From Lingula anatina (lineage: Eukaryota > Animalia > Brachiopoda), in the NCBI GenBank assembly GCA_051362555.1, contig CM120645.1, positions 4,464,001 to 4,528,000 of the forward strand: a stretch of DNA of 64,000 nucleotides, read 5' to 3'. This document shows positions 974 through 42,086 of the stretch, in pieces. The notes beneath the pieces were generated by a model that was not told where the DNA came from, did no database searches, and saw nothing but the letters and a program-made list of their open reading frames with translations. The position numbers were made by a program, and so were the translations under genes. Numbering within the stretch: position 1 is the first letter of the stretch; the number at the start of each line of letters is the position of its first letter.

Positions 974-979
974 CTAGAG
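974..979 (+). repeat. Left target-site duplication CTAGAG (partner at 10333-10338)
   Basis: The same hexamer flanks both TIR ends; 6-bp TSDs are characteristic of Polinton integrases. Confidence 0.92.
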
Positions 980-1299
980 AGTAGTTACATCCGTACTATA
1001 CGGGAGAAAAGAATTCCACTTTTTTCTTTTGTTATGTTACATCATTTGAACAATGGAAAACCTATACCGGACAATGGGGATGTTTACAAAATAAACAAAC
1101 AATTTTTTTAATGTAAACAAACGAGACTCCCTATTTTTGTTTACGTTTCACTATGGTAACGGATGACGTCACAGAACGGGCCTGGGCATGTCGGGGTAAT
1201 GTTTACGTTTTGTCATAGCGACGGATGACGTCAAGCGCAATTCTTTTGTTAGGCGTGTTGCATGTTCAGGCGTGCAATTTGAAGGCTATATATGTTGGA
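980..1299 (+). repeat. Left terminal inverted repeat (320 bp)
   Basis: Reverse complement of 10013-10332 with no mismatch seen by eye; identity ends after ...GAAGGCTATATATGTTGGA. Confidence 0.96.
1138..1293 (+). promoter_or_regulatory. Putative inward-facing promoter inside the TIR (Forkhead-like, X-box-like and CRE sites, TATA)
   Basis: Two modules TGTTTACGTTT..[X-box-like]..ACGGATGACGTCA, with CRE palindromes at 1164-1171 and 1226-1233. TATATA at ~1287-1292 lies ~65 bp upstream of the ATG at 1354. Confidence 0.55.
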
Positions 1300-1353
1300 A
1301 TGGTCAAATCAAACTCCAATTCACTGACCTAAGTTGTACGTTCGAACATCAAA

Positions 1354-2229
1354 ATGTCGCAGTTCTTCAAACTTGGTGAAGATAGTCTGTTGTCGATATG
1401 CAGAAGCAAACAGGGGGTCCAGTTGGTCGTCTTCAGCGATTTGAAAACGTTGAACAAGATCCGGATGCCTCGAGAAGCATGGGAAGATTTTAAAAACACC
1501 CTGCCTTCCGTCCAAACTGCTATGTCTACCGATACTGAAATAGATGATCAGCTGGGAGAAAACTATAATGTCCGTGTGCTGTACGACATTGGTAAGGAGG
1601 AATCTGTGATGAAGCTAGCCTACGCGCCGGTAAGTGCGTCGTATGAAGCGATGTACGATGTACAATTTGACAAACGCACATTGGAGACGTTGCTGACCAA
1701 AATGCCTGAAATCAATGCAGCGCTGGGTGAAATCCCACCGACAACAGTCAGCGAGGAGCCGGAAGAAAGTGATGAAAGAATGTTTGGAGCCGAAAACGAT
1801 GTAGAAGCAGACGTAGTATTAATTCATCTCATTTACGTGAAGTTGATCGTGCAGGAAATAGAGGCCATGCGTTACAGGTACTGTACTGGGTGTATAGCCG
1901 CGCACGGTTCCCAAAAGCATCACATGGATGGGTGTATGGCCGACTGGTCAGTTTCGGTACATGTGTACTTCACCAGGGCAAAAGCTGATGTAAGTCATGA
2001 GGTAATACTGAAGGCCTACAAGTTAATGAAGAAAAAACTGAGACAACAAGAAAACCCATACATACTTTCCGTCATCATGACTGCATCGCTGCTGGAAGAT
2101 TTTCGGAAAGACGTGGAGGAACCGAGCCATGCGTTATCCCCTGATACCGTCCTCGCTAGTATGGTCTACGATGTGTGCAAGATTGTATATGGCGAACATT
2201 TGTATAAGGCGATAAAAAAATCAGAATAA
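1354..2229 (+). CDS. Polinton accessory protein: possible PC4-like N-terminus plus C-terminal Cys/His motif
   Basis: Intact 291-aa ORF with AATAAA overlapping the stop. N-terminus FFKLGEDSLLSI...IRMPREAWEDF is reminiscent of PC4 ssDNA-binding domains; CTGC-x5-SQKHH-x2-GC is a putative metal-binding motif. The ORF is solid, the function tentative. Confidence 0.6.
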   Translation: MSQFFKLGEDSLLSICRSKQGVQLVVFSDLKTLNKIRMPREAWEDFKNTLPSVQTAMSTDTEIDDQLGENYNVRVLYDIGKEESVMKLAYAPVSASYEAMYDVQFDKRTLETLLTKMPEINAALGEIPPTTVSEEPEESDERMFGAENDVEADVVLIHLIYVKLIVQEIEAMRYRYCTGCIAAHGSQKHHMDGCMADWSVSVHVYFTRAKADVSHEVILKAYKLMKKKLRQQENPYILSVIMTASLLEDFRKDVEEPSHALSPDTVLASMVYDVCKIVYGEHLYKAIKKSE

Positions 2230-2326
2230 ACTTTGAATTGAACAGAAAAAGACGCCGTATAATCTGTGTAGAATTAACAAAGTTTGCATGTACATTAGCT
2301 AGAAGTGTGCGATGAAAGAAGACATT

Positions 2327-2530
2327 TGATTGGTTGATTATGACATCATATCTAAAAATAGATTTATATATGGAACGTTAATTTGATGTGATGAAGACAA
2401 TTTGATAGTAAAGAGTTGTTTACAAACATTTCATTGATTAAAATAATATGCGATTTGATTGGTTGAAAAAATGTTATTTGTTGTTAGCTGTAACGTGATT
2501 GGTTAGAAAAAATGTAATACATGATTGGTT
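2327..2530 (+). promoter_or_regulatory. Cluster of four inverted CCAAT boxes (TGATTGGTT) upstream of the BIR/integrase ORFs
   Basis: ATTGG cores at 2329, 2458, 2498 and 2524 in the 377-bp intergenic gap. Confidence 0.55.
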
Positions 2531-2606
2531 GAAATAAACACACAGCTTACCCGAAAAATTACAAAAATGTGTTTGCGATCATTTTTCTTTATACCGAGTA
2601 GACAGA

Positions 2607-3074
2607 ATGGATGATGATCATCCGGAAACCGATTCCGAGTTGGAGGGTGTGCTATATGGACCGGTCATGCCATACGCAAAAGAAGAAGACCGAATTATGA
2701 GTTTTCTTAATTGGCCGGGCAAACTACTTATCAACCCAATCCCTTTAGCCATTAGTGGATTTTACCGAGACCCACGAGCGTCTAGACACGATGATGTGGT
2801 TCGTTGTTTTTACTGCGATTTGTATCTAAAGAATTGGGACCCGCTGAGAGATGCCCCAGATGTCGAACACGAACGACACTCTCCTCAATGCACGATGAGT
2901 ACGGTTGGAAAAAGAATAAATCAACGATTTAATGTACCACTTACACCTAAAAAGCGACTTCAAATGGTTAGGCTTTTTGTGGTAGATGACACACTGCCCG
3001 TTGTACATCCCGCCAGTACAGTGATGTCGCTACTAAATACCCATTACGATGAAACTGGTGGGAACTATAAATAG
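2607..3074 (+). CDS. Single-BIR-domain inhibitor-of-apoptosis-like protein
   Basis: EEDRIMSFLNWP...LAISGFY...DVVRCFYC...NWDP..DAPDVEHERHSPQC contains the canonical BIR motifs (RxxSF, GFY, CxxC, H, C zinc ligands); no RING domain. Confidence 0.9.
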   Translation: MDDDHPETDSELEGVLYGPVMPYAKEEDRIMSFLNWPGKLLINPIPLAISGFYRDPRASRHDDVVRCFYCDLYLKNWDPLRDAPDVEHERHSPQCTMSTVGKRINQRFNVPLTPKKRLQMVRLFVVDDTLPVVHPASTVMSLLNTHYDETGGNYK

Positions 3075-3135
3075 AGATAGGATAAAGAAAGAAAACATTT
3101 AGCTTGTTGGAATTGATCCATAACTGTATGAGAAA

Positions 3136-4242
3136 ATGCCGCGTAAGAAAAAAACCAAGAAAGGGCAGAACAAAACAGATGCATATCTGCATAGTTTGTA
3201 TACCAACCCGTCAAACCCTGTAAGCTTTGGTGGTATGTTAAAACTGTATAATGCCGCACGAAAAGATGGTATGAAAATCAGTCGTCAGCAAATCAAAGAT
3301 TTTCTAGCCGCCCAAGATGTGTATACATTACATGCACCGGTTAGGAAACAATTCAGTACAAATCGCGTCATGGTGAATTATATTGATGATCAATGGCAGG
3401 GTGATCTGGCAGACCTCAGTAAGATAGCAAAATACAATAAAGGAATGAAATTCTTGTTAACCGTGATTGATATATTTTCAAAATACGCATGGGCAGTTCC
3501 AATCAAATCAAAATCAGCGGACAATGTATTAGATGCGTTTAAAGGCATTGTTTCCGAAGGCAGAAAGCCACTGGTACTTCAAACTGATGCAGGGACAGAA
3601 TTTACAAATAGAAAATTTCAAGCGTACCTCAAGAGTCAAGGCATAGCTTTTTTCACAACAAAATCGGAAAGAAAAAGCTCTGTGGTTGAGCGTTTTAACA
3701 GAAGCATAAAGACCCGTTTGTACAGATATTTCACAGCAAACAGTACGTTAACGTATGTGACAGTCCTAAACGACTTGATGACAGGATACAACCATGCAAA
3801 ACATCGAAGCATAAAGATGGCCCCAATCGATGTGAATCCACGAAATGCAAACATTGTGTGGAAAAACTTGTATGGAAAAGTAAAAATAGGGAAGTCGGGG
3901 TTTAAATTTCAAGTAGGAGATACTGTAAGATTAAGCAAAACACGCACCCCTTTTGCAAAAGGATACGAACAGGGATGGACACAGGAAATATTTACAATAT
4001 CAGAAAGATTAAACAGAACACCTCCTGTGTATAAGGTGAAAGATTACAATGGAGAGCAAATCGAAGGTGTCTTGTACGAACCAGAAATGATTAAAGTTAT
4101 TAAAACTGACGACGTGTATCGTATCGAGAAAATTTTAAAGACCCGTGGAAAGGGGAAAACTAGGCAGCTTTTTGTAAAATGGGTAGGTTATGATGATCGT
4201 TTCAATACTTGGGTAGATTCGAAGGATGTACAAAAAACATAA
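3136..4242 (+). CDS. Retroviral-like (rve) c-integrase with C-terminal chromodomain
   Basis: DDE triad in QWQGDLAD / LQTDAGTEF / SVVERFNRS. The C-terminus YRIEKIL...LFVKWVGYDDRFNTWV is chromodomain-like. Confidence 0.95.
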   Translation: MPRKKKTKKGQNKTDAYLHSLYTNPSNPVSFGGMLKLYNAARKDGMKISRQQIKDFLAAQDVYTLHAPVRKQFSTNRVMVNYIDDQWQGDLADLSKIAKYNKGMKFLLTVIDIFSKYAWAVPIKSKSADNVLDAFKGIVSEGRKPLVLQTDAGTEFTNRKFQAYLKSQGIAFFTTKSERKSSVVERFNRSIKTRLYRYFTANSTLTYVTVLNDLMTGYNHAKHRSIKMAPIDVNPRNANIVWKNLYGKVKIGKSGFKFQVGDTVRLSKTRTPFAKGYEQGWTQEIFTISERLNRTPPVYKVKDYNGEQIEGVLYEPEMIKVIKTDDVYRIEKILKTRGKGKTRQLFVKWVGYDDRFNTWVDSKDVQKT

Positions 4243-4280
4243 ATGTAACCGGTACCAGACAAAACACCTCATTTGAAAGG

Positions 4281-5012
4281 ATGGCGTCGTCTTTTCATGT
4301 TATCTTACCGTCAAACAGCAGCTTTAAGTATTTCCCTAACAACAGACCCGAGACATTCCAAACAAAACTGTCATCGTCACTTAATCTAGAAGGGGATTTT
4401 GAAGTCGCATTGGTGGAACTACAGTACCCATATTCGTGGAATAATATTCAGAACGGTGTATTGACATATTACGACGGGGTAAAAACAAATACGTTAAACA
4501 TTACTGCAGGGTATTATCCGACAGTTGGCGATCTAATAACTGCAATTCACGATCAGTTAACAGCTATTGGAAAAACAAACATAACGTTGGGTTATAACAT
4601 TATCAGCAGACGAGTTACAGTTCACTTGAAATCGGGGGCCTACATCGATGTTGCGGGAGACATGGCGACAATGCTGGGGTTTAAACCGAATGTCAGAGTT
4701 AATGCAGATACAATAGCCCCTTACCCTCCAAACATGACGTTAGGGTTCAATTCCCTCTACGTGTATACAGATATTATACAAAATCAGATGGTAGGGGACG
4801 CTTCGGCAAATTTACTGAGGATTGTTGATATTAATGGCGTTTACGGACAAGTGGTCACAAAAACATTTGACAATCCCATTTACATCCCTCTAAATCGTCG
4901 TCATATTGACACAATTCGAATAGATATAAGTCGTGACACGGGTGAACTTGTGCAGTTTGATAGCGGGAAGGCTATAGCGACACTTCATTTTCGCAGAAAG
5001 AGTTTATTATAA
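4281..5012 (+). CDS. Minor capsid protein (penton, single jelly-roll)
   Basis: First ATG is at 4281 (the track start at 4209 is TTG). FHVILPSNSS..YFPNN...F.TKL..SLNLEGDFEVAL, LYVYTDII..QMVGD...LLRIV and terminal TLHFRR are typical of Polinton pentons. Confidence 0.85.
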   Translation: MASSFHVILPSNSSFKYFPNNRPETFQTKLSSSLNLEGDFEVALVELQYPYSWNNIQNGVLTYYDGVKTNTLNITAGYYPTVGDLITAIHDQLTAIGKTNITLGYNIISRRVTVHLKSGAYIDVAGDMATMLGFKPNVRVNADTIAPYPPNMTLGFNSLYVYTDIIQNQMVGDASANLLRIVDINGVYGQVVTKTFDNPIYIPLNRRHIDTIRIDISRDTGELVQFDSGKAIATLHFRRKSLL

Positions 5013-5014
5013 AA

Positions 5015-5392
5015 ATGGATCCTGTATACGTAGCATTAGTAAAAAGATACGAAGCACAGGTGGGCGGAGGGTCCATTCATAAATTTAGAGGTACAAGGGT
5101 ACAATCACGAATGCAAAGAGGCAATGGTAGGCTATTTCAACCTAGACACGCTGAAATATTGCATGTAGATAGACAGAATAACCCGAAACGCACAGAACAA
5201 CCCGCAGTAAAGAAGAAACGTAAAAGAAGTCGTACTCCGAAGTCAAAACTTTATGTTAATGGTGACGTCATAAGGAAAACGTTAAACGCCATGACTATAA
5301 AAAAGAACAACACACCTAAAGCAACCAGAAGAGTAAAAGGTAGACGACCAAAACAGTCACGTTCATTCAAGGCACGAGAAACGAATTTTTAG
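5015..5392 (+). CDS. Small basic (K/R-rich) putative virion core protein
   Basis: 125 aa between penton and MCP. Contains QVGGG..FRG.RVQ..MQRGNG (QxGxG, possible protease sites) and the basic tract KKKRKRSR. Confidence 0.65.
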   Translation: MDPVYVALVKRYEAQVGGGSIHKFRGTRVQSRMQRGNGRLFQPRHAEILHVDRQNNPKRTEQPAVKKKRKRSRTPKSKLYVNGDVIRKTLNAMTIKKNNTPKATRRVKGRRPKQSRSFKARETNF

Positions 5393-5394
5393 AC

Positions 5395-6714
5395 ATGAAT
5401 AACACTGAAAATGATCCCATCGTCAGAACTGAACTGGATATATTTTCGAATATACGCGATCATATGCAGACCGATCTGTTATCGAGCTATTTTGAAGAAG
5501 TGAGACCTCTCACTGCGGTTGCAGATGTGAGCCCCGTAATAGAATTTGTCATTAAAGGAACACCCGACGAATATATCGATACGACGCAAATCAACCTATA
5601 CGTTGAAGGTCAAATTGTTAAAGCAGATGGAACTGACATCGATGCAGGACAAAACACGTCAGTTGTGAATAACACGCTACACTCCCTATTTACAGCGGTC
5701 GACGTAGAGTTGAATGACCATTTAATAACGGTGGGACAGAATACATATGCCTACCGCGCATACTTGGAAAATTTATTGTATTATGGGAAAAATGCTAAAG
5801 AATCGCTTTTAACTTCGGAAATGTATTACCAAGATACCGATGGACTGATGGATGACGTTGATGTAGACGGAGACCCAGGGAATGAAGGATTTAAGGCCCG
5901 TAATTCTTGGTTTCAAAGGAGCAGGAGGGTTGAAATGTATGGACCGTTAAAAATTGACTTAGCCACTCAAAACAAGCTTCTTCTGAATCAAGTGGACGTA
6001 CGAATCAAGTTGCGAAGGACGTCGCATGCATTTTGCCTTATGTCGGACACGGATGCACAAGAACAATTTCTGATCAAAAACATATCCCTTTTTGTAAGGA
6101 GAGTCAAAGTATCTGATCGGTTGAAACTGGCTCATGAGAACATATTAGCCAAACACGTAGCATGTTATCCCATGACTAGAAGGGAAGTCAAAGTTATCAA
6201 TTTACCCAATGGAGTAAGAACGGCTCATATTGACAATGCGTATTTTGGACGCATGCCTAAACGTATTCTTTTGGCTTTGTTGGAAGATGATGCTTTTTCG
6301 GGAGATTATACTAAGAATCCGTTTAATTTCAAACACAACGATTTAAGGCAACTTCGATTAATGGTGGCGGGGGAACAAATACCATTCAAACCTTACAATT
6401 TTGATTTTAGTGTTCAAGGGGGGTTAAACTACTTAAGGGCGTATTATGATCTTTTGTCAGCAGTTGGAGCGGCAGACGGAGAGCACAGCATCGATATTGA
6501 TAGAACTCAATACCTGAATGGATATGTTTTATTCGCTCACGATCTAACCCCTGATCAAACCTTTGACAATTATATAACTCCAACAAAGCAGGGTTCGCTT
6601 AACATCGATCTGGAGTTTGGACAACAGATTAACAATATCGTGTTGCTTGTCATGGCAGAATTTGATTCAGTTATCAAAATTGACCAACGTAGGAGCGTTT
6701 TTGTAGAATATTAA
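5395..6714 (+). CDS. Major capsid protein (double jelly-roll, hexon-like/PY)
   Basis: 439 aa with ELDIF...IEFVI...YID...LYV, VNNTLHSLF..VDVELND, YAYRAYLENLLYY, NPFNFKH and AEFDSVIKID, matching Polinton MCP motifs. Confidence 0.92.
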   Translation: MNNTENDPIVRTELDIFSNIRDHMQTDLLSSYFEEVRPLTAVADVSPVIEFVIKGTPDEYIDTTQINLYVEGQIVKADGTDIDAGQNTSVVNNTLHSLFTAVDVELNDHLITVGQNTYAYRAYLENLLYYGKNAKESLLTSEMYYQDTDGLMDDVDVDGDPGNEGFKARNSWFQRSRRVEMYGPLKIDLATQNKLLLNQVDVRIKLRRTSHAFCLMSDTDAQEQFLIKNISLFVRRVKVSDRLKLAHENILAKHVACYPMTRREVKVINLPNGVRTAHIDNAYFGRMPKRILLALLEDDAFSGDYTKNPFNFKHNDLRQLRLMVAGEQIPFKPYNFDFSVQGGLNYLRAYYDLLSAVGAADGEHSIDIDRTQYLNGYVLFAHDLTPDQTFDNYITPTKQGSLNIDLEFGQQINNIVLLVMAEFDSVIKIDQRRSVFVEY

Positions 6715-6716
6715 AT

Positions 6717-7244
6717 ATGAATACGAAGCAAATAGAATGCATTCTTCAGACTGATCCGGTTACGAGTACATGTTTTCAAGGGGTGTTTGCATCAGACGCG
6801 TTGCCCAAAAAGATATGGACTTATCCAGCATGCCTCGTGGCTAATACGGATCCTCACGATAAACCGGGCGTGCACTGGGTTGCTTTTTACTTTGATGAAC
6901 AGGGACACGGAGAGTTCTTTGACTCTTATGCGAAATCACCTTATTATTACAACGCAGCTTTTAAACGTTTTTTAGATGAAAACTCTTTATCTGGGTGGAA
7001 TTGTAACACTAGGACATTACAGAGCCTGTATACCAAAGTGTGTGGACAATACTGTATATATTACTTGATGAATAGATCTCGTGGAAAAAAATTAGAACAG
7101 ATACTTAGTAAATTCACCAGCGACAAACAATTTAATGATATATTAGTGTATGATTATGTTAATGCACATTGCAACATACCCTACTGTGTAAACGCGTGTT
7201 TTCAAGTTTGTAGATCAAAGAAGTCACTAGGAATATTGTATTAA
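6717..7244 (+). CDS. Adenain/Ulp1-like cysteine maturation protease
   Basis: Catalytic H-D-Q-C residues in NTD...PGVHWVAF, EFFDSY and LQS...VCGQYC. Confidence 0.92.
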   Translation: MNTKQIECILQTDPVTSTCFQGVFASDALPKKIWTYPACLVANTDPHDKPGVHWVAFYFDEQGHGEFFDSYAKSPYYYNAAFKRFLDENSLSGWNCNTRTLQSLYTKVCGQYCIYYLMNRSRGKKLEQILSKFTSDKQFNDILVYDYVNAHCNIPYCVNACFQVCRSKKSLGILY

Positions 7245-7309
7245 ACACATTTATTCGAGTAATAATAAAAATACAGCTGTGCAAATATGTTTTATGTTAT
7301 TATTTTATT
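7245..7309. terminator. Putative bidirectional polyadenylation region between convergent gene blocks
   Basis: AATAAA on plus at 7264-7269 and TTTATT (minus-strand AATAAA) at ~7250 and ~7304, within a 65-bp gap between convergent stops. Confidence 0.55.
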
Positions 7310-8071
7310 TCAATATATGTTGAATAAAGATAGTTTAGATTTTACTACATTTCCCGAATCTTTCTGACTTGGCCTGGGAGCTGGTTTAGTTTTTGCTACA
7401 TGTCCCGAGCCCATCTGAGTTGAACTGGAAGAAGTGTCCAACGACATAATCTGGTTGCGCCGCTTTACGTTTGAGATGTTATTTAGTGGTACATTAAGAC
7501 GTTTCAAACCCTTTAAAAATACAGTAAGCCCTGGCGGTTCGTAATTCCTACGGGGTACATACAGATCGTTAAACAAATCTACTACATTGCTTCCTTCGTA
7601 CACTCTACCATTGTATTTCAACTCCCCTTGATCATTATACGACAGCACATTAGGTTGGTTAGACATGTATCTCAAAATTACGTTAGCTTTGCGACGCACA
7701 CGCTGTGGTATTGCATCTAATATCTCGGCTTTAAGATGTAATACAGATCCAGCCTCTGACTTGACGATGGGGGTTGCGGTTGCGTCAGCGGTGTCAACTC
7801 CAGGTTGTGCTTCTAACGGTTGTGACGAATTGTGCACAACAACTGCAACCGGTTCGCGTTTTCTCGCTTTACTCAGATATTGACTTTGAAGATCGTTGTA
7901 GATACTCATTTTTTCATCGAATGGTACATCGGTCCTTTGCAAAGTTTTCTTCATTTCATTTTCTAAACGTAGTGTTTCTTCGACAAAGGGGGAATAATTA
8001 GCGCTTACTCTCTGTTTCAAAGCATTCAGTTCGTTCTCGTTGATTAAGACCATTTTATTGAAGCCTGCCAT
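7310..8071 (-). CDS. Conserved Polinton hypothetical protein (PZ-type)
   Basis: 253 aa with KMVLI, LENEMKKTL...EKMSIY and YNDQGELKYNG..YEGSNVVDL...PPGLTVFLKGL..LNVP, resembling a recurrent Polinton core ORF; family label tentative. Confidence 0.7.
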   Translation of the reverse strand: MAGFNKMVLINENELNALKQRVSANYSPFVEETLRLENEMKKTLQRTDVPFDEKMSIYNDLQSQYLSKARKREPVAVVVHNSSQPLEAQPGVDTADATATPIVKSEAGSVLHLKAEILDAIPQRVRRKANVILRYMSNQPNVLSYNDQGELKYNGRVYEGSNVVDLFNDLYVPRRNYEPPGLTVFLKGLKRLNVPLNNISNVKRRNQIMSLDTSSSSTQMGSGHVAKTKPAPRPSQKDSGNVVKSKLSLFNIY

Positions 8072-8378
8072 TTCTTGTTATCGGTTTAAGAATTGCCTTA
8101 ACTGCACCCGGATTCCGTATCAAAATTATTTTTTTCCGATGAATGGACACTTGTTTGGAAGCCAGCTGAACGATGACGCGTTTAACCCTCCGTAATGCCG
8201 ATTTTTCTGTCGCAGTCAGGGTAATATTTGTATTATATAATAGATTAGATGCGTAGTTACAGATAATTCTAACGAGATCGTAGGGTGAATTCTTAACAAC
8301 GGCAGTTATCAATTTCTTGTCGGCTATGGAAAGCAAACTGACATGAGCATTGAATAACTTTTCTGTCTCAACTTTCAT
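8055..8378 (-). CDS. Small basic conserved Polinton protein (PW-type)
   Basis: 107 aa with IICNYASNLL..NITLT..EK..LRR.K..IVQLASK.VS...KK.IL, resembling the small ORF usually found next to the Polinton ATPase. Confidence 0.7.
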   Translation of the reverse strand: MKVETEKLFNAHVSLLSIADKKLITAVVKNSPYDLVRIICNYASNLLYNTNITLTATEKSALRRVKRVIVQLASKQVSIHRKKIILIRNPGAVKAILKPITRNGRLQ

Positions 8379-8408
8379 GATACACCGCAGCGATGAAAAT
8401 ATGTTCAG

Positions 8409-9080
8409 TCATTTACATGTGTATGCGTAATGCGTTTCTCCGGGAAAGATATTGGTGCGCAGACGAATGCAATCCGCAGTGTTCTGTCTGAGGTCTATGA
8501 GTAAATAGCTATGGGCACTGGATGTGGCGTCTTTATAAACATTTATAAACGATTTTAGATCGTTGGGATACATTTGCATTCCTAGCGTTTTGACTTGCAG
8601 GGAGTCACGGGGGTTTTTAAAAAGAACCAAATAATGACAGTTCAACGATATGGTTCGCGCGTGCTTTTCTTTGGGAAATAAATTTTGTACAATCAATACT
8701 ACACTGATGTTACGATGGTGAGAGCCTTTTGTGAATAGGTCACGGATCCGGGCATCGTCGCTACATTCGGCAAAAAGATCATCGAGTACTATTAGATTAT
8801 TTAATTGAGAATCAAAAAAGGTGGCGTCGGTTAAGTCGGTAGGAATACCTTTAAAGAATGTTACTGTGTCAGGGTGTTCCCTCTGAATATCATCGAACAA
8901 CTGCTGCCAAATATCGTAACAATATATTATCTTTTGTGGCGACGGTGAAATCATTTTATCGGCATTTGATAATAGCCTTTTAATCCATACTGTTTTTCCT
9001 GAACCAGTGGGCCCTGCTAAAAGAGCAGTGAAAGGGTGTTTTAGATGTGTATCGTACATGTCCAAAAATGTAATTGACAT
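8409..9080 (-). CDS. A32/FtsK-HerA-family genome-packaging ATPase
   Basis: Walker A GPTGSGKT, Walker B LIVLDD, plus LFTKGSHHRNISVVLIVQN and RTISLN motifs. Confidence 0.95.
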   Translation of the reverse strand: MSITFLDMYDTHLKHPFTALLAGPTGSGKTVWIKRLLSNADKMISPSPQKIIYCYDIWQQLFDDIQREHPDTVTFFKGIPTDLTDATFFDSQLNNLIVLDDLFAECSDDARIRDLFTKGSHHRNISVVLIVQNLFPKEKHARTISLNCHYLVLFKNPRDSLQVKTLGMQMYPNDLKSFINVYKDATSSAHSYLLIDLRQNTADCIRLRTNIFPGETHYAYTCK

Positions 9081-9659
9081 TTATCGGCTTGAAGAGTTTA
9101 CTTTATACCTTTTATCACGTGTTATACACAAACGACATATTATTTCCTGAGTCTTTCCATGATGAAGTTCTACGTGTTTCTAAGTTTTCGCTTACTATTA
9201 TCCTTACAACATCTGGTTTTCAACGGTCAATGTTCAAGTTTTATAATTAGCCTGGCTATGCTAGCGCTTTGATCTATGTAGTAATGTGATTTATTAGGAG
9301 GGGCCTGGACATTTTAATTGAGACAGTGGTTAGGGAACACTGTTTCTATCTATCCATACATGTGAAGTGATAAAAATTGCAGTAAAATTGATAACCGCTT
9401 TTCATTTTCAAGCTAAAGTTCGTAGGTTCGGGGGAGGGTACTTAGTGACACGGTACATTCAGTTCTCATGCATCGTACACAAAGAGGCAATCGCCATTAA
9501 TTAATGTGTGCTGTTTCGTCTCTATGGGCCTTTCAATAGCGTGTGATTGTGCTTGTGCACATTCTTTTGTGAAGAGATTACGTTGAGAGCGACACTGAAA
9601 GTACTAAAGAGACTGGTGTTGTTTCTGTACACGGGGGGTACAATAGAAGACCACAGCAC

Positions 9660-9773
9660 GTACATTATTAACAACATTTTCCCCCGAAGACGATATTATT
9701 GATAGTATCCGATTTGTACGGCAGGTACATTATTAACAACATTTTCCCCCGAAGACGATATTATTGATAGTAT
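9660..9773 (+). repeat. 49-bp direct repeat (9660-9708 and 9725-9773) in the non-coding right arm of the Polinton
   Basis: GTACATTATTAACAACATTTTCCCCCGAAGACGATATTATTGATAGTAT occurs twice; a diverged copy of 9607-9681 lies at 9929-10003. Confidence 0.9.
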
Positions 9774-10012
9774 TTGCTTTGTGTTATGTTCTACTACATT
9801 TTATTGAGTGCAACGCTGACTATGTAATGAAATTTAAACGCGTATCAATCGATACAATAGAACAACTGTAGTCACACCCATGCGTGTTGTTGTAAGGGAT
9901 TACATCAAGAGAGTGGCATTGAAATTATAAGAGGCTGGTGTTGATTCTGTGAACAGGGAGGACAATATAAGGCCAGGGCATATGAATAATCAACAGCATT
10001 TTCTCACGGTTG

Positions 10013-10332
10013 TCCAACATATATAGCCTTCAAATTGCACGCCTGAACATGCAACACGCCTAACAAAAGAATTGCGCTTGACGTCATCCGTCGCTATGAC
10101 AAAACGTAAACATTACCCCGACATGCCCAGGCCCGTTCTGTGACGTCATCCGTTACCATAGTGAAACGTAAACAAAAATAGGGAGTCTCGTTTGTTTACA
10201 TTAAAAAAATTGTTTGTTTATTTTGTAAACATCCCCATTGTCCGGTATAGGTTTTCCATTGTTCAAATGATGTAACATAACAAAAGAAAAAAGTGGAATT
10301 CTTTTCTCCCGTATAGTACGGATGTAACTACT
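10013..10332 (-). repeat. Right terminal inverted repeat (320 bp)
   Basis: Runs TCCAACATATATAGCCTTC...GGATGTAACTACT, the reverse complement of 980-1299. Confidence 0.96.
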
Positions 10333-11786
10333 CTAGAGACCTTTGCCATAATTAAACTGAGACTGATTTCAACTTTAACTAGATGAAGCCGTAAATAAAA
10401 TTATTCAACCCTTTTAAAACTGAGCACATCCTTTAAAACTTGGGTACAGTTCTTTCCTGTTAATAAAATACGTTAACAGATTCATGATATATAATTATAA
10501 CTGAGACAATTGAACAATCTTTTCCAAACATTGATATTCTTTGATTTAAATGAGGAAGTTTCTAAATAATTTGGTAATGAAATCACCACTATGACATATC
10601 ATTTTTTTTAATTTAAACCAAAGATTCTTCAAATTCGTAGCCATTCTTCAAAAATAATATTTGTTCCATAATAAGGGCAAAAAGACAAATGTGCATTACA
10701 GAAAAAAATCTACTAGTATTTGAGCTCCCACCACGATTTGAAATCCACAGTGATGGCAAAAGGTTAGATCTACCATTATGACAAACAACGCGATTATTGA
10801 TCGATTTAGGCAATACAAGAGATCAAATTACAAGATCACATTCTAGAATTAGAACACGCAAATGACAAAGTTGCATTCTACAAACACTTATAAGCATCAT
10901 CTGCCTACATACTACAACTTCAGATACATTTCGTGTATGACCATCTTGCATTAATTACATATTAGTCCAGAATAATGACTTTACAATATAAAACGTGTAA
11001 GCTAACTAGTGTAGCAAGCGGAGATGAAGGTTCATCTGAACTGAAGAAATAAATTTGTATAATTTGATATATACAAATCATGAAGTTAGTGTTTTCCTAC
11101 AACCTCCTACAACTAGAAAGCTTTTCATCAAAGAACCAGACATTACCTTAGGTTATTTTGCAGGACGGTAGTCTTAAAATGGCATCATGAAATCCATCCT
11201 GCTTAATGACCAGGGCAACAAAATCTATAAAGTATTTTTTGATGATGTACTTTAAAGCAACCATGAAGTGATGAATGTTTTCATTTCGGTACTTGTATTT
11301 TCATCAAAAAAATAAGGAGAGGACGCCACCTTGGATTTGGTTGACAAATTGAAAAATGTAAAATGGCTGAAAATCGAAGAAAACCTACTTTCTTGGAGCC
11401 AGCACAAATATTTATAATATTTATTGTTAACAAGATTTAAAATCAATTTTTTTATTTATATATGACAAATGAATAACGTGGCGGCCATCTTGGATTTTAC
11501 TTGTTTCCCGAACAAACGGACACTATTACAAGCCGGAAACAAGCAGCTATAAAACCATGTTCTGAACTGTAGGGCCATTTATAAAACCGCTGTGTGACGG
11601 GGGTTCATCCAAATCCTTAAATAAGGTCTATTTTCCTTTAGGCTCACAGTTAACATAAATGATTATTTTCTGAAACTTCCAAACAAAATTATAATACAAA
11701 GAGTACCGGTAGTAAAAATAAAAGTATTTTACACAAGTGTTATATTCGGAGAGGTAGCGCTTCTGGCGATCATGAGTACTACCTGA

Positions 11787-13556: not shown

Positions 13557-14200
13557 TCATGAAAAATCAGTAATTGTATGACCTCCAGCAGCCGCTTGCA
13601 GCGCCCTCATCCTACATGGCATGCCCTGCGACACGTTTTTTAGAGTTTGGATGGGGATATCATTCCACGCAGTGATATTTGCCTGTCGCAGTCCATCACT
13701 ATTTACCGGCCGATGACCATAGCTATTAATTCTGTGAGTTACTTTTGCCCAAATTTTTTCAATTGGGTTCATATCTGGAGAGTTTGCAGGCCAGGGCAGT
13801 TGCTGAACCCATTGATTTTGAAGAAAAACAGTGATTCTGTGGGCTCGATGTGGGGTTGCACAGTCGTCTTGGTACACAAATTTGTTCCTGAAGATGACTC
13901 TTACCAATCGAAGCATTGTTTGCTGTAGAATGTCTCTGTAAGAATCCTGGATGAAGTTGCCTCCTAGAAAAACCAACTGGTTCTGGGCACCGACATGAAA
14001 TGCTCCCCAAACAGAGACGTTACCATCCCCTGCTTGCACCCTAGGCAGTACACAATCATCGTTTTATGCCCCTTGTACACGTCGGTGGACACGGATTCGA
14101 CCATCAACCCTAAAAAACCATATCTGGCCTCGTCACTGAAAATGACGTGATTCCAGTGTTGTGGCTGCAAACGCACGTGGTCCCCAGCCCATTGCAGACG
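13557..14200 (-). pseudogene. Decayed Tc1-family (DD34E) transposase
   Basis: WNHVIFSDEAR is in one frame; VWGAF...YQDDCATPH...WPANSPDMNPIEKIW is in another, with 34 residues between D and E. Frameshifted; TIRs not resolved. Confidence 0.88.
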
Positions 14201-29642: not shown

Positions 29643-31765
29643 GTTCACGAGGTGCTTGCAGAAAGGAAGAGAGTCTGAACTGTGAAGGGCCAGGGTCACC
29701 GCTAGAGGGCTTAAAATGAATTCAAGATAGCCCCAATCTGAGTCCTGGACTGTTGTGCACGGACTGAATGCGATAGCTGAGATATGCCACATGGAAAAAA
29801 TCCTATCCTTTTTGTAATAATTTCGCAATATTGTGTTTTGACTCTTGCTAATAAATATAACTCAATAAAATCAAAAAATAAATAAAATCAAATTAGTTTG
29901 TGTTGAACATTGTTAAATATTGTTGAATACTGGTTATAATCAAGAAAAAATAGCTACAATTTTGTTGCATTAAATACTGGGCATCACTTTATCTTTAAAA
30001 ACGCATCTTTACTTCCGTTTGTATAAAAATATACTTGTATCAACATACATGTAGAAGTCGTCTAAACTCCAATGCTTGATATCCACGTTTTAAAGAAATA
30101 CTGTATTATCCAACTCTCAAGGGGTTAGGGGTAATAAAAGTGGGCAGGGCCCATTCACTTGAAGGTTGCATTGAAAACTTGAAATATTTCTTTAATGTCA
30201 AATGGTGGATTTACATTTTTTTCACCAATGTTAAAATACAAAGCAACCTCGGGACTTCAGTATTTAAGGGGACAGTGTATATGCATTGTTACCAGTTTTA
30301 CTTCGCATTTATCTATCAGCTTCAGACGTATAGCTATGTAACTGTTACTACATTTTAAAGCTTTTTAACATACAACGCCCATTTTACCGGTATATGTTTA
30401 ATGTACTGTATGTGCTATTCAGTGGCTGATTGTAAATATCGACAAATCTTTACTTTAAATCTCTTAATTTCTTGATTATAATAATTATCATTTTCTGCAA
30501 ACCATCAGTATTAGCACGCTTAAACATGAATTGTGCCAAGATGAAAATAAGCACACAAATTCCCAATTATATATCAAACACCATATCATTCGTATTTCTT
30601 CTTGGATTGCTGCCCTATTAGTGTTAATATAGCTTCTCGGTTAGGATCACTATAATGAACTTGGTCTAGATCTGTTAATCCCTACTTTGACACTCTGATT
30701 GGTACAGTGATCACGTTTTATGGCCGCACACGTTAAGAGGCAAATTTTTTTTTTACTTCATAGACACAATTTTATTAATCTCTTTCATTTCTGTATGCAT
30801 GTATCTTTAGTTTTTTTTATATTTTAAAGTATTAATTTGAAATTGCCGAAAATATTTTTACATAAATAAGCCGTGTGGCTCATAACATCTGTTAATGAAC
30901 GGTATATTAGTACAGGTGCTCTGACATGCATGTAATCAAAAATCTGAAATAGGAAATGGTTTGCTTCATCAACTACAATTACAATAAACGCAAATAAGTC
31001 TACCCGTCCTTGCATTTGGATTCGACATTTTATACCTTTTCTTATAAAACAATTCAGTTCTAAAGAACTGTCCAGTGACTTAGAAAAACGTATTTTCTTG
31101 TACTTTTCAAAAGGAAAAATCAACACCAAGTACATGATTTTTTATTGTTATAAGTGTTTGAATTGGGAAAGATGATCGGGTGGCTCTGCAGGATATTCAT
31201 ACACAGAAAATATTAATCTTAACTGGCAAAGCAGGTTTCCAGTTAATTGCAGTCCCTCTTATATCGTTCACGAAGGTATGATCATAATCCAAACCACGTA
31301 TTCTGGTATCAATTGCATACTAAAGGGCGGGGCTGCAATGTACATGTATTCTGTTTGAGGAATAAATGACACCACCTCTGCCATACCATGAATATGTTTC
31401 CAGGAACCTATTTCATAACACCATATCGATGTCAAGTGGATTTGCTCGAGTATCAAATCATTGGTGTTGTTGGCGAGGCAATGGCAAACACGTTGTCTCT
31501 CGACTTTTTACTTTCTTGAGTACAGACTCATTTAACATGCTGTCTTGCGTCACGTCTGAGATGGGGCGGTGGGACATTAAAGACACTGGCTCTGAAGGCA
31601 ACGGATATATGCAAATATTTTTGCATTTTTGGTGTACAGTGTATTCTGAATATTAGGGAAAAAGTGCCGTGATGACAGGAGGACGGTTGTATTCGTCTTG
31701 ACGAGGAAGGGATTGGTGGTATAAACATTCTGCCATGAATTGAACTTGGTTCATATTTTAACACG

Positions 31766-32821
31766 ATGGAAACTTCGTTGCGTTTATGCAGTGGTTTACT
31801 AGTGGACTGTAACCAGACCTTAAATGCGGATAGTTTTAATGAAACTACAGAAAAAATCCCAACGCACGGAAAAACGGATTTCAACTTATACACTTTTTGT
31901 GTCTCAGGAGTATTCAACGGTTTGATTTGCACGCTGGGATTCATTTTCAACATTTTGTCGTTTTTAGTATTTAAAAAAGGGAAAACACAAACACCAAATG
32001 CATATTTGTTGTCATGGGTTGCAGTCACGGACAATATTGTTCTCCTTACCTCGACCATCATTTCAGTTCTGCCAGCTTTCCATGTATATTACGGATGGTT
32101 GGAATGGTACTTTACTTACAGTCAGAAATATACCAAGTTCGTTTTTCCAATATATCGCAGTGCAAGGCAGATGTCCCTTTATTTTCTTATCATGGTGGCT
32201 TATGACAGATATTTAGCTTTAGCCAAGCCTATTAAAAGCATGAAGACCCGTTCTGTGTCAAAGTGGAGGTGCCGATCACACGTAATGATAGTAGGGGTTT
32301 TATTATACAGCATTCCAAAGTTCTTTGATCATGAATTTGTAGGTTATGCGCCTTGTCCAACTCATTCGGATGGTATTTGTCAAAAGACTGAAATCAAGAA
32401 CTGGGGAAATGTTTATAAAGTGATGTGCCGAATAATACCCACGGTAGTTCTGGAACTTTTTGGACCAGCTGTGATCAACACAACGCTGTACGTTAAAATT
32501 CGGGCAGCTGTGAGGAAAAACGAGGAATCTCGCTCCAAAATGATTCTGCGGTCGCGAAACAATCAATCGAATAAACTTACAAAGGTCATCACCACTCTTC
32601 TGGTATTTTACTTGCTGTCTGTAATACCTCTGTCTATTTATTTCCCATTATATTTTTTGCGAGACCAGATTGCAGATTTCGGGTTCCATTATGCCCTGGA
32701 TGCCATGACGGCACCAATGCTGTGTTTAAGTGCTATGAACGCAGCAGTCAACTTTTTTGTCTACGGAATCATAGGTTCAGCCTTTAGACGCGACATGAGG
32801 GATCTTCTATGTCTTAAATAA
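31766..32821 (+). CDS. Intronless rhodopsin-class GPCR, FMRFamide/peptide-receptor-like (copy 1, intact)
   Basis: 351 aa with seven hydrophobic segments, YL..VAVTD in TM2, YDRY at the end of TM3, YSIPKFF and NAAVNFFVY in TM7. Confidence 0.88.
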   Translation: METSLRLCSGLLVDCNQTLNADSFNETTEKIPTHGKTDFNLYTFCVSGVFNGLICTLGFIFNILSFLVFKKGKTQTPNAYLLSWVAVTDNIVLLTSTIISVLPAFHVYYGWLEWYFTYSQKYTKFVFPIYRSARQMSLYFLIMVAYDRYLALAKPIKSMKTRSVSKWRCRSHVMIVGVLLYSIPKFFDHEFVGYAPCPTHSDGICQKTEIKNWGNVYKVMCRIIPTVVLELFGPAVINTTLYVKIRAAVRKNEESRSKMILRSRNNQSNKLTKVITTLLVFYLLSVIPLSIYFPLYFLRDQIADFGFHYALDAMTAPMLCLSAMNAAVNFFVYGIIGSAFRRDMRDLLCLK

Positions 32822-32975
32822 GGTCATGGGTTTTTGCAGTATTATATCAGCATACAATTTCTGAGAGACATTAAGCTTTTATATAATTGCAGGCTAAGAT
32901 TTCCTTTGAAATAACAAGCTTAAGGAGAGTAAGCAGAAATGTGAGTAGTTTGCAAATTTATGCTTAATCAAGGTT

Positions 32976-33018
<43 letters not shown>

Positions 33019-33874
33019 ATGTTTGTATCACGATTTAATCTCCGAAAAAAATTCTGATACCGATAAATAACATTGATGCCATAGAAATTTTAATTTTTAA
33101 GTTTCATTCACGGCAAAATTTAGATCATACTCTCAAGAATTACGAAGACAGAAAAAGGGTGACGAAGGGTAAACCCACTATATGACAAATACTGTATAGC
33201 CAGTTTTTTTTTTTTTTTTTTCTGAAACAATACGCACTGGTGCATGTCATCTAAGTACTTGTATCACATATTTTTTATAGTCATTCAGTGGGTGTGGGTG
33301 TTTTTGAACTATGCCAATTTTGTATAAGGAGGGGTACCTAACCTGGAGCATCTACTTACGTTAGGTTCCTTTTATTTTTCATTAGCAAGGCAACATATTC
33401 TAAGAATGACTACAGATTTCGAGAAATATATGATTCTACAATTCAGTTAGATATGCATTCTATCTATTTTATCCACTGACACTGTTCGGTCGAAAGGTCA
33501 AATATATAAATTATTGCTGTTTACGTAAACGTTAACCAGGAAAATGTCATTTATTATATAAGTCGTAAGTCCTTCAAGTACCACAATGTTTAGCTCATAG
33601 CTAAGAGAGGCTGTCACTTTTGCTATTACTGGCTACCTGTTTTTTAGCCACTCTCATATGGCTTTTTATAAACCACGACGTGTAGTAGGTAAATATAAAC
33701 TGAGGTACGGTGTCTAAAACTTAGAGAGACTGTTTTTGCAATTAACCTAGTAGTGTATACACGTTAGCACATATATTTCTGGAAAATTATAATTCTCGTT
33801 TTGTAATGGCATGCCCGTCGTCAGTCATGTTAAAATTGTCCATATTTTAAGATTATATACCTATATATATATTC

Positions 33875-33915
<41 letters not shown>

Positions 33916-35134
33916 CCATATATATATATCCCAGATCTATCGAGCAACTATTTTTTTTTTAATTCTTAGTAGCAAATGCCAATTACAAAGACAAAATTAA
34001 CACATACTGTAATATACATATACAATAAATGTAATAAAATGGATATTGTATTAATGTAACTTTCATTTTTCTATGAATAGAATACAAGGGAAATAGCAAT
34101 ATTTATTGCCATTGAGGTATATTATGTGCAGATTACTGCATGAGAATGAAGGAGAAGCGGTGAACTTAACCCAACCAAATCAGGGCTTCATGAGAGCCAG
34201 TGCTCTAAAGTTTTTTTTCCCATAGGCAACTAACCAGAATAAGTCCAACATTTTTCTTTAAAGTTTTTACAAACATCATTGTAGCGTTTTGGCATTCTAA
34301 TCATCTCCTGATAATCGAAATCTGCAATGCAATGAATGACATGCTAACTCGACTATGCCTAGTACTTCTCAGTTACCGTTGTAAGTTCGTTTTTCGTTTT
34401 TTTAATTCACCTATCAATCATTAAAACAAACGCATTTGACACTACCACTCGTTTTTCTTCTTTTTATCATTTAAAGATGAAATCTATACCCAGAAGTACC
34501 CAACAAGCATTTTGTGATACTTGATGAAAGATCCATGATAACCAATCTCAAAAACAAAAAGTAGTGTAACTACTTGTTAGATAGGACAGCGTGTCTCTGT
34601 GTGCGACAAAAGATTCAATTTATTAAAATATATATATATTTTGAAATATGAATCCCATATGAACAGTTGTTATCCCTTTAAAGGTTCCTTTTCAACAATT
34701 CTATATAAGGCTATTCTCAGACGCCTATGCTGAGGTGACCCTCATTACCCGATAGACAAGGGTAAGATCACGTCAACAATGCAGCGCAATGATGCGTTTA
34801 TTTACCTATAGCAGATGTGCTTTGAAGGTATGCTTAAGATTGACTTTTCCACCATCATATCGCCGGCTAATTGACCAGGCCGGACAGAAAGCGGACTGTA
34901 GACGAAGACGCTAATGTGAAGATACCAGATTTCACAAAACTGTTACATGCCGTTGCTAGAAAAACCCGACAACAACATGTTAGTCCGCGGTTCAAATTGC
35001 TCTAAATGCGCCCATAGACAGCATGAAACTGAAAAAACTGTTCCAACTCAATCAGTGTAAAATCATGTATTTAGCAACGTTCTTCTGTAATAATAAAGGA
35101 ATGCTTTCATGCGCCTATACATGTAGGTCAGAAA

Positions 35135-35421
35135 AGGTTAACTTAGAAGTGATTAGTTTTTGGTGGTGATCCAGATCAATAATCAATCAAAAATAAAAAA
35201 AACTAAGTTATGGACCGATTTTGATGAAATTTTCAGGAAATGTCAGAAGTGGGCTAAGGAAGAGATGATTAATTTTTGGTGGTGATCCAGATCAATAATC
35301 AATCAATAATCAAAAATCAAAAAAATAAATCATTATAGAATGAAACTTTAGGGGTGAATCGGCATTGGGTGAAAACTTTGCTGCCTTGGCGGAGGTCTGC
35401 GCTCTCGGAGTGCTTTTCTAG
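35135..35421 (+). mobile_element. Non-autonomous Helitron/Helentron-like fragment; related copies at ~50-195 and ~39293-39592
   Basis: Repeated TTTTTGGTGGTGATCCAGATC units and a 3' end CCTTGGCGGAGGTCTGCGCTCTCGGAGTGCTTTTCTAG (short hairpin then CTAG). Confidence 0.6.
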
Positions 35422-35923
35422 TTTCAGTCTTGAATCAGTCACGAAGATATGGTCATAATCCAAGCCACGTATTCTGGTATCATTGGATACTAATGTATCT
35501 GTATTCTATTTGAAGAATAAATGACACCACCTCTGCCATACCATGAATTTGCTTCCAAGAAAGTATTTCATGAAAATAGCGATGCCAATGGACTTGCTTG
35601 AATATCAAATCATTGGTGATGCTTGCCAGGCAATGACAAACACGTTGTCTCTCGACTTTTTACTTTCTTAATAAGTATAGATTCATTTAACGTGCAGTCT
35701 GGCGTCACATCTGAGATGGGCGGTGGGACATTAAAGACACTGGCTCTGAAGGTAACGGATATATGCAACTATTTTTGTATTTTTGATGCAGTGTATTCTG
35801 AATATTAGGGAAAAAGCAAAAGTACCGTGCTGACCGGAGGAGGGTTGTATTCGTCTTGACGAGGAAGGGATTGGTGGTATAAGCATTCCGCCATGAAGTG
35901 AACTTGGTCCATATTCTAACACG

Positions 35924-36973: not shown

Positions 36974-37127
36974 GGTCATGGGTTTTTGCAGTATTATATC
37001 AGCATACAATTTCTGAGAGACATTAAACTTTTATATAATTGCAGGCTAAGATTTCCTTTGAAATAACAAGCTTAAGGAGAGTAAGCAGAAATGTGAGTAG
37101 TTTGCAAATTTATGCTTAATCAAGGTT

Positions 37128-37160
<33 letters not shown>

Positions 37161-37977: not shown

Positions 37978-38057
<80 letters not shown>

Positions 38058-41157: not shown

Positions 41158-41306
41158 GGCCATGGGTTTTTGCAGTATTATATCAGCATACAATTTCTGA
41201 GAGAAACGAAACATTTTTTGATAATTGCAGGCTAAGATTTCCTTTGAAATAAGAAGTTTAAGGAGAGTAAGCAGAAATGTGAGTAGCTTGCAGATTTATG
41301 CTTAAT

Positions 41307-41360
<54 letters not shown>

Positions 41361-42053: not shown

Positions 42054-42086
<33 letters not shown>

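What the first reader, a model, noticed from the sequence alone, without database searches (positions are those of the whole stretch)
980..10332. Complete, young Polinton/Maverick provirus with full virion and integrase modules but no DNA polymerase
Seen: both 320-bp TIRs, an exact 6-bp TSD and ten uninterrupted ORFs. The largest ORF-free internal gaps are 377 bp and 932 bp, so a roughly 1,000-aa or longer pPolB cannot be encoded. Established: protein-primed PolB is the defining replication gene of Polintons, which are typically 15-25 kb, and non-autonomous derivatives usually decay. Inference: this 9.35-kb element keeps the AGTAGT protein-priming termini and every morphogenesis gene (MCP, penton, protease, ATPase, core proteins). 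It may be a satellite or defective-interfering-like element that borrows pPolB/terminal protein from a helper while packaging and integrating itself. Identical TIRs and a clean TSD suggest a recent insertion, possibly already in polymerase-less form.
Basis: partly seen in the sequence, partly recalled or inferred. Interest (0 to 1): 0.9.

Follow-up and report, generated by a model that had tools for sequence, protein, structure and literature searches.

The report
Polymerase-less Polinton copy from internal deletion
This 9.35-kb virus-like jumping element in an animal genome keeps intact integrase, capsid, protease and packaging genes but has no DNA polymerase gene; near-identical relatives in other individuals carry extra DNA at two places, so it is a shortened, rearranged copy that likely relied on a longer relative's polymerase to move.

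Summary
In detail: 9,353 bp, exact 320-bp TIRs, CTAGAG target-site duplication, ten open genes, no pPolB or pPolB remnant. Other individuals of the species carry the same family (one contig 99.5% identical, different flank), but their contigs leave the window's sequence at two points. At 9147/9148, just upstream of the ATPase where pPolB usually sits, a block of roughly 1 kb or more is missing. At 10014, the family's right subterminal block is replaced by an inverted copy of the left end, lengthening the TIR from about 208-212 to 320 bp. So this is a rearranged derivative, not a shown satellite lineage. That the missing DNA holds pPolB is inferred, not seen. A second deletion starting within 9 nt of the same point and also sparing the ATPase occurs in two other samples, and two samples show left-end pieces at 7-10 times the body's depth. 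Most likely such derivatives arise during replication and integrate with helper polymerase (0.55); in-place rearrangement after insertion is the main rival. Mobile polB-less Polintons were already reported in insects. Interest moderate.

The parts
974..979 (.). left copy of 6-bp target-site duplication (CTAGAG)
980..1299 (+). left TIR (320 bp; outer 208-212 bp is the family's TIR); starts AGTAGT; TATA-like TATATAT at 1287-1293 upstream of ORF1
   Evidence: family TIR length
1354..2229 (+). ORF1, 291 aa accessory protein: predicted PC4/Pur-alpha-like (single-stranded DNA-binding type) N-terminal half plus conserved CxxC...H...C helical domain; not a polymerase
   Evidence: weak: profile of 23 PC4-like locus ORFs E 2e-5 among 13 sequences; 15 relatives, invariant C177 C180 H190 C194; 1 of 10 aligned members hits Pfam PC4; model pLDDT 67, best fold match Pur-alpha Z 6.5, rmsd 4.8, 124 aligned
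2607..3074 (+). BIR (inhibitor-of-apoptosis) domain protein, 155 aa
   Evidence: PF00653 E 3e-14, above cut-off; zinc ligands present
3136..4242 (+). retroviral-like integrase with chromodomain, 368 aa
   Evidence: PF00665 E 2.5e-13, PF00385 E 4e-7; D-D-E motifs present
4281..5012 (+). minor capsid protein (penton, PX), 243 aa, by position and similarity
   Evidence: tblastn 24-36% identity to the gene between integrase and MCP in related loci; no Pfam hit
5015..5392 (+). basic 125-aa protein at the PW position (labelled 'core' in my scripts)
   Evidence: position as in PMC8097293 section 7; no homolog found among locus ORFs
5395..6714 (+). double jelly-roll major capsid protein, 439 aa
   Evidence: 118 homologs, best 71% to Lingula anatina XP_013382753.1; model pLDDT 86 matches PBCV-1, Sputnik and mavirus capsids, E 1e-16 to 1e-13
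6717..7244 (+). adenain-like maturation protease, 175 aa
   Evidence: PF00770 E 4e-4, 20.6 bits against cut-off 21.3; His and Cys motifs present; 34-47% to protease genes of related loci
7310..8071 (-). PZ protein, 253 aa
   Evidence: homologs in related loci, best E 4e-27; position
8055..8378 (-). PM protein, 107 aa (labelled 'PW' in my scripts)
   Evidence: homologs in related loci, best E 4e-9; lies between ATPase and PZ as
8409..9080 (-). A32-like packaging ATPase, 223 aa
   Evidence: PF04665 E 9e-8, PF02456 E 5e-6; Walker A present
9147..9148 (.). deletion junction: a block of about 1 kb or more present in relatives is absent here, at the usual pPolB position
   Evidence: tables 7-8; synteny census
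9148..10012 (.). non-coding remnant of the right accessory region, with a 65-bp tandem duplication at 9653-9782 (92% alike)
   Evidence: contigs of other samples match 9148-10014
10013..10124 (-). inverted copy of left-end sequence (about 1188-1299) in place of the family's right subterminal block; lengthens the TIR
   Evidence: 5 of 5 near-identical runs leave the window at 10014; 3 of 5 leave the TIR at 10121/10125
10125..10332 (-). outer right TIR (family TIR, about 208-212 bp), ends ACTACT
10333..10338 (.). right copy of target-site duplication (CTAGAG)

Best explanation
This is a recently inserted, shortened and rearranged copy of a multi-copy Polinton/Maverick family that lacks two blocks of DNA carried by its relatives, likely including the polymerase gene, and it likely formed during replication and was likely copied by a longer relative's polymerase before it integrated. 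Shown: the anatomy, the absence of pPolB, the two junctions, other insertion sites of the family, and mostly synonymous differences. Inferred: (1) full-length family members hold pPolB in the missing DNA; (2) during protein-primed strand-displacement replication a template switch or end-to-end (panhandle) repair removed the pPolB block and copied about 110 bp of the left end onto the right end; (3) the product kept both AGTAGT origins and the integrase ends, so pPolB and its terminal-protein domain supplied in trans could copy it and integrase could insert it with a 6-bp duplication; (4) with all virion genes intact it would be able to supply or share capsids, like a defective-interfering genome.
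For: Extra DNA: X5 and X6 contigs leave the window at 9147 (241 and 280 unlike letters) and re-enter at 9148 (715 unlike letters each) with no overlap, so no target-site duplication of an inserted element; unlike letters before 9148 in 5 of 6 runs laid, 3 studies, including the 93%-identical X10 family, so the longer state is the older one. 5 of 5 near-identical runs leave at 10014; TIR exit at 208-212 bp in 3 of 5; in X3 outer-TIR depth 147 equals left 84.3 plus right 64.6. Position: pPolB lies within 1.4 kb upstream of the ATPase in 11 of 18 related loci with 400 nt or more upstream, elsewhere in 2, contig too short in 5; same module in vertebrate Mavericks. Family mobility: other flanks in X1 and X3. 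Little time since insertion: 0 mismatches in 320 bp (95% upper bound 0.9%); of 26 listed coding differences 20 are synonymous, and 5 of 7 private to the window copy (p 0.007-0.02), so no neutral decay yet, which makes two in-place structural events less likely. A second deletion joint, 8-9 nt from the same point to 9365, is in X2 and X3, in two sub-variants in X3 (depth 24.5 and 18 of about 63). Precedent: polB-less polintons in Pieris mannii and another insect group appear to have stayed mobile (preprint section 13).
Against: The missing blocks could not be read: only lower bounds are known (about 0.93-1.0 kb at 9147/9148; at least 232 + 255 nt at the right end), so pPolB in them is not shown and no helper was seen. 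No second insertion site of this exact form is shown. The synonymous count rests on 28 sites from the 40 best-supported of 831 rows. Contig depth is not a copy number, so the multi-copy reading of the second deletion is soft and could be alleles or segmental copies. No host genome or long reads were available, so the two junctions in the window were not confirmed on reads. The replication mechanism is recalled from adenovirus biology; my paper search for it found only a general review listing.
Confidence: 0.55

Rival explanations
1. A full-length copy inserted first; the pPolB block was then deleted in place and the right end was rewritten from the left end by repair between the paired TIRs. 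The copy is a dead end that only looks intact because it is young.
For: Only one site is known for this exact form. Both junctions differ from what 5 of 5 near-identical runs show at 10014 and 5 of 6 runs at 9148. The family shows many other internal deletions (joints 1415-1966, 7071-7632, 9553-9898). [quoted passage not shown] Internal deletion by abortive gap repair is the usual source of non-autonomous DNA transposons (recalled).
Against: Needs two structural events before a single TIR mismatch or any excess of amino-acid changes arose. Two independent deletions stop within 9 nt of each other just upstream of the ATPase and spare every virion gene.
Confidence: 0.25
2. The 9.35-kb form is a stable satellite lineage that has spread as many copies and is kept under selection without a polymerase.
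For: Private differences of the window copy are mostly synonymous (5 of 7). An X2 contig begins exactly at 9148 (table 8), which suggests a second way into that point and may be the window's junction. The second deletion form has two sub-variants.
Against: In 5 of 5 near-identical runs from 3 studies the contigs continue past 10014 into sequence the window lacks. The copy is only about 0.5% from a longer relative (37 differences in 8,073 nt), so it has no long separate history.
Confidence: 0.08
3. One or both junctions are assembly errors made by collapsing near-identical copies or by mirroring the left end.
For: The family is multi-copy and near-identical, which is hard to assemble; no reads of the source individual could be laid.
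Against: The window has no N, unique flanks join with an exact TSD, the copy has its own consistent private variants, and a biologically similar deletion joint exists in independent samples.
Confidence: 0.07
4. The family has no pPolB in cis at all (split, bipartite Polinton, or accessory genes only in the missing blocks), and a separate polymerase element with the same ends supplies replication.
For: Missing blocks are known only as lower bounds compatible with about 1 kb of accessory DNA.
Against: In X3 the outer-TIR depth (147) is fully used by left end (84.3) plus right body (64.6), leaving no room for an abundant partner with the same ends (depth is a rough guide). Synteny puts pPolB at the deleted position in 11 of 13 related loci where a pPolB was seen.
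Confidence: 0.05

Closest known systems
Animal Polintons/Mavericks (adintoviruses) with two head-to-head modules, as in vertebrates (PMC8097293, section 7 and passages read; PMC8502044, passages read)
   Same: int-mcp-pw-MCP-pro module facing atp-pm-pz module; (AGT)2//(ACT)2 ends; 6-bp TSD; TIR length in the reported 46-1,447 bp range; accessory genes inside the TIR; IAP homologs are reported in adintoviruses.
   Different: No pPolB; 9.35 kb against 12.7-24.6 kb for intact vertebrate elements; TIR lengthened by a copied left end.
polB-less polintons of Pieris mannii and a second insect group (bioRxiv 10.1101/2025.02.07.637071, section 13 read, passages elsewhere)
   Same: TIR-flanked, capsid-encoding, polB lost next to the packaging ATPase, near-identical longer relatives in the same species, apparent mobility after loss.
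   Different: Those carry LINE or LTR cargo; this copy carries none and is a clean deletion with a rewritten right end; host is not an insect (nearest capsid protein is from Lingula).
Polinton-like viruses and Tlr1 elements without active pPolB (PMC5499653, abstract and passages read)
   Same: Virion module without an active pPolB.
   Different: They replace pPolB with a helicase or other replicase; this copy has no replication enzyme, and its capsid and layout are those of animal Polintons.
Defective-interfering genomes of linear DNA viruses and non-autonomous DNA transposons (recalled; PMC13506859 seen only as a search listing)
   Same: Keeps the cis ends, loses the replicase, would depend on a helper.
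   Different: Keeps a whole virion module and an integrase; interference with a helper is untested.

Membership tests
Polinton/Maverick (autonomous) | [quoted passage not shown] | tested here: not met
   no ORF large enough; pPolB1 and pPolB2 profiles and tblastn negative
Polinton/Maverick (autonomous) | retroviral-like (rve) integrase | tested here: met
Polinton/Maverick (autonomous) | TIRs with (AGT)2 or (AG)3 ends and 6-bp TSD | tested here: met
Polinton/Maverick (autonomous) | double jelly-roll major capsid protein | tested here: met
Polinton/Maverick (autonomous) | A32-like ATPase and adenain-like protease | tested here: met
   (protease just under the Pfam cut-off, motifs and homologs present)
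Polinton/Maverick (autonomous) | single jelly-roll minor capsid protein | tested here: inconclusive
   position and 24-36% identity to the same gene in related loci; fold not tested
Non-autonomous Polinton derivative | derived by deletion from a longer near-identical family member | tested here: met
Non-autonomous Polinton derivative | the longer member encodes pPolB | not testable with these tools
   no genome held; laid contigs show only where they leave the window
Non-autonomous Polinton derivative | same junctions at two or more insertion sites (mobile without pPolB) | tested here: inconclusive
   not shown for this form; a second deletion form has two sub-variants and high contig depth in X3
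Satellite or defective-interfering virus | replicated and packaged with a helper; free linear DNA or virions | not testable with these tools
   only indirect hints: left-end contigs at 7-10 times body depth in X5 and X6
Polinton-like virus / Tlr1 | alternative replicase (SF1 or SF3 helicase, primase-polymerase) in place of pPolB | tested here: not met
   all ten ORFs accounted for, none a replicase

The most novel reading that the evidence does not exclude
This animal carries an actively replicating Polinton that keeps throwing off defective-interfering genomes: polymerase-less but virion-complete forms arise repeatedly at one breakpoint beside the ATPase, ends are rewritten by copy-back, some derivatives re-integrate and multiply with helper polymerase, and individual animals hold large excesses of left-end molecules, which would be a direct footprint of extrachromosomal Polinton replication in an animal.
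Probability: 0.2. Interest if true: 0.75.

Novelty: new member of a known kind. Interest (0 to 1): 0.38.

Why it matters
Polinton surveys usually require pPolB plus integrase (methods passages of PMC8097293, and of the nematode preprint), so polymerase-less but virion-complete copies are filtered out and their share is unknown. How they move is an open question raised in the insect preprint. A young family with many sequenced individuals, recurrent deletions at one point and a rewritten end is a good system to test trans-complementation and the strand-displacement replication model for animal Polintons, whose free replicating form is poorly documented. The single copy on its own is an ordinary non-autonomous derivative.

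Tried and rejected
No host genome was held, so no copy census or helper search was possible. No contig bridging the window's right junction was seen: depth in bin 9990-10034 is fully explained by listed non-bridging contigs in X2, X3, X5, X6 (853.4/852.6, 77.1/77.1, 308.8/308.8, 233.3/233.3), and by hand in X1 (11.9); contigs drop rare variants, so this is not proof of absence. Whether X2 holds the 9147/9148 junction could not be decided: the depth sums fit with or without it, and 121 rows of table 8 were hidden. No exact empty-site joint was among the 15 joints shown (22 hidden), and the window's left flank had little cover in the runs. The 32-aa frame ending at 9081 has a DKR motif like pPolB C-termini but scores below zero bits (E about 80-100): rejected as a remnant. 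An inserted transposon as the source of the extra DNA in relatives was rejected (no overlap at 9147/9148; present also in the 93%-identical family). The pPolB homolog search listed no Lingula protein among the best 120 of 2,480: uninformative. The top of the small pPolB1 profile output was cut; one search replaced it. None of 9 window proteins looked up is in the protein collection by exact match. ORF1: no hit; fold match weak (Z 6.5). MCP: no close viral-contig relative, no PDB sequence hit. Terminal 23-mer: no match in viral contigs. Atlas look-up of the minor capsid did not complete. Kapitonov and Jurka 2006 is not held; Repbase-type names of non-autonomous Polintons turned up only in search listings. 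Paper searches for polB-less Polintons gave one direct report, the insect preprint; its extended data were not seen; one search listed no paper on brachiopod Polintons among 20 of 503.
Full report
Observation. The element spans 980-10332 (9,353 bp) with exact 320-bp TIRs, AGTAGT/ACTACT ends and a CTAGAG target-site duplication. Ten uninterrupted ORFs fill 7,167 bp. On the + strand: ORF1, a BIR protein, integrase with chromodomain, minor capsid, a basic PW-position protein, major capsid and protease; on the - strand: ATPase, PM and PZ. The major capsid model (pLDDT 86) matches PBCV-1, Sputnik and mavirus double jelly-rolls; its closest named relative is a Lingula anatina protein at 71%, which points to an invertebrate host without fixing it. 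This is the two-module layout of vertebrate Mavericks without its first gene. pPolB is absent even as a remnant: profiles of both polymerase classes and tblastn of 131 pPolBs find nothing in six frames of the 64-kb window. ORF1 is not a substitute replicase; it weakly resembles PC4/Pur-alpha single-stranded DNA-binding proteins and has a conserved Cys/His domain.

The family. No genome was held, so I used public runs. Nine DNA runs from six samples and three studies hold 0.81-0.83 of the element's sampled words. I laid six runs (six samples, four studies); all are contigs, which show presence, not absence, and whose depth is only a rough guide. X1 has one contig over 979-9050 with 37 differences in 8,073 nt and a different left flank; X3 shows another flank at the terminus. 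So the family sits at several sites and is young. Of the 40 difference rows shown (831 in all), 28 fell between the TIRs upstream of 9081; 26 are coding and 20 of these are synonymous, against 22-28% expected; 5 of the 7 private to the window copy are synonymous (p 0.007-0.02). The copy shows purifying selection on its lineage and no neutral decay.

Two junctions make this copy a derivative. First, X5 and X6 contigs follow the window to 9147 and then run on for 241 and 280 unlike letters; other contigs join at 9148 after 715 unlike letters. Unlike letters before 9148 are seen in 5 of 6 runs, including the 93%-identical X10 family, so the longer state is older and about 1 kb or more is missing here, 67 bp upstream of the ATPase start. 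That is where pPolB usually lies: within 1.4 kb upstream of the ATPase in 11 of 18 related metagenomic loci with at least 400 nt upstream, elsewhere in 2, not reached in 5. The content and full size of the block were not read, so pPolB in it is an inference. Second, 5 of 5 near-identical runs leave the window at 10014, and 3 of 5 leave the TIR at 10121/10125, 208-212 bp from the end; in X3 the outer TIR depth (147) equals left end (84.3) plus right body (64.6). The family TIR is therefore about 210 bp, and in the window the right subterminal block has been replaced by an inverted copy of about 110 bp of the left end.

Signs that this is a recurring process. X2 and X3 hold a different deletion that starts 8-9 nt from the same point and runs to 9365, again sparing the ATPase; in X3 two sub-variants have depth 24.5 and 18 of about 63. 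X5 and X6 have left-end contigs at 9.7 and 7.5 times the body depth, with different extents, while X1 is flat. Unchecked earlier notes of this scan describe a similar 8-kb polymerase-less Maverick, fold-back derivatives and a possible split Polinton in other genomes; I treat these as leads only.

Mechanism. Most likely (0.55) the copy arose while a full-length member was being replicated by protein-primed strand displacement: loss of the internal block and copying of one end from the other are expected products of template switching and panhandle repair (recalled from adenovirus replication, not tested). Both origins and the integrase ends survive, so polymerase and terminal protein from a longer relative could copy it and integrase could insert it. 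The lack of decay argues that both rearrangements came before insertion. The main rival (0.25) is rearrangement in place after insertion; nothing seen excludes it, because no second site with these junctions is shown. A stable satellite lineage (0.08), assembly error (0.07) and a family with no cis pPolB (0.05) fit less well.

Comparison and novelty. It fails the defining pPolB test for an autonomous Polinton (definition in PMC5499653) and meets the integrase, capsid, ATPase, protease, TIR and TSD tests; it works like a non-autonomous Polinton derivative. It is not a Polinton-like virus, since it has no alternative replicase. polB-less polintons that seem to have stayed mobile, with longer relatives in the same species, are already described in insects (preprint section 13); that was the one direct report in five searches, and the 2006 founding paper was not available. 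What this case adds is a clean, cargo-free deletion, a lengthened TIR whose origin can be traced, and hints of repeated deletion at one point and of amplified left-end DNA.

Verdict. Observation confirmed; interpretation partly supported; new member of a known kind; interest 0.38. The bolder reading, an actively replicating animal Polinton producing defective-interfering genomes, has probability about 0.2 and would deserve 0.75.

Noticed in passing
runs X5 and X6 laid on window 10013-10332 (= left end 980-4940): Left-end contigs have depth 576 (X5, 845 nt, window about 1158-2002) and 399 (X6, 3,961 nt, from the terminus to about 4940, ending exactly at the terminus) against 59 and 53 for the element body; X1 of the same study is flat at 33.5. 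Individual-specific excess of left-end DNA: copy-back molecules, a short high-copy derivative, or library bias.
   Followed up: partly
runs X2 and X3, joint 9147/9148 to 9365: A second deletion that keeps 8-9 nt more than the window's and also spares the ATPase; two sub-variants in X3 make up about two thirds of local contig depth.
   Followed up: partly
window 10019-10025: The copied left-end segment includes the TATA-like TATATAT that precedes ORF1, so a copy of that putative promoter now faces the ATPase module from the right end; function untested.
   Followed up: no
run X10 on window 1138-9700: Another sample labelled as the same organism holds a sister family about 93% identical (358 differences in 5,445 nt).
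   Followed up: partly
window about 740-860 and 10340-10570: Both flanks draw very high contig depth in all four runs, so the element seems to have landed in or beside a host repeat.
   Followed up: no
window about 31300-43600: Three tandem 4.15-kb copies (92-100% alike), each with an intron-free GPCR-like ORF of 325-360 aa; family name not tested.
   Followed up: no
window 13557-14063: 168-aa frame resembling a Tc1-type transposase fragment (label recalled).
   Followed up: no
window 61865-62668: 267-aa frame resembling a monocarboxylate-transporter exon (label recalled).
   Followed up: no
L002 474-3281 and L006 3529-5279: Related Polintons with three (L002) and two (L006) tandem minor-capsid-like genes; L002 also has an 1,868-aa pPolB.
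   Followed up: no
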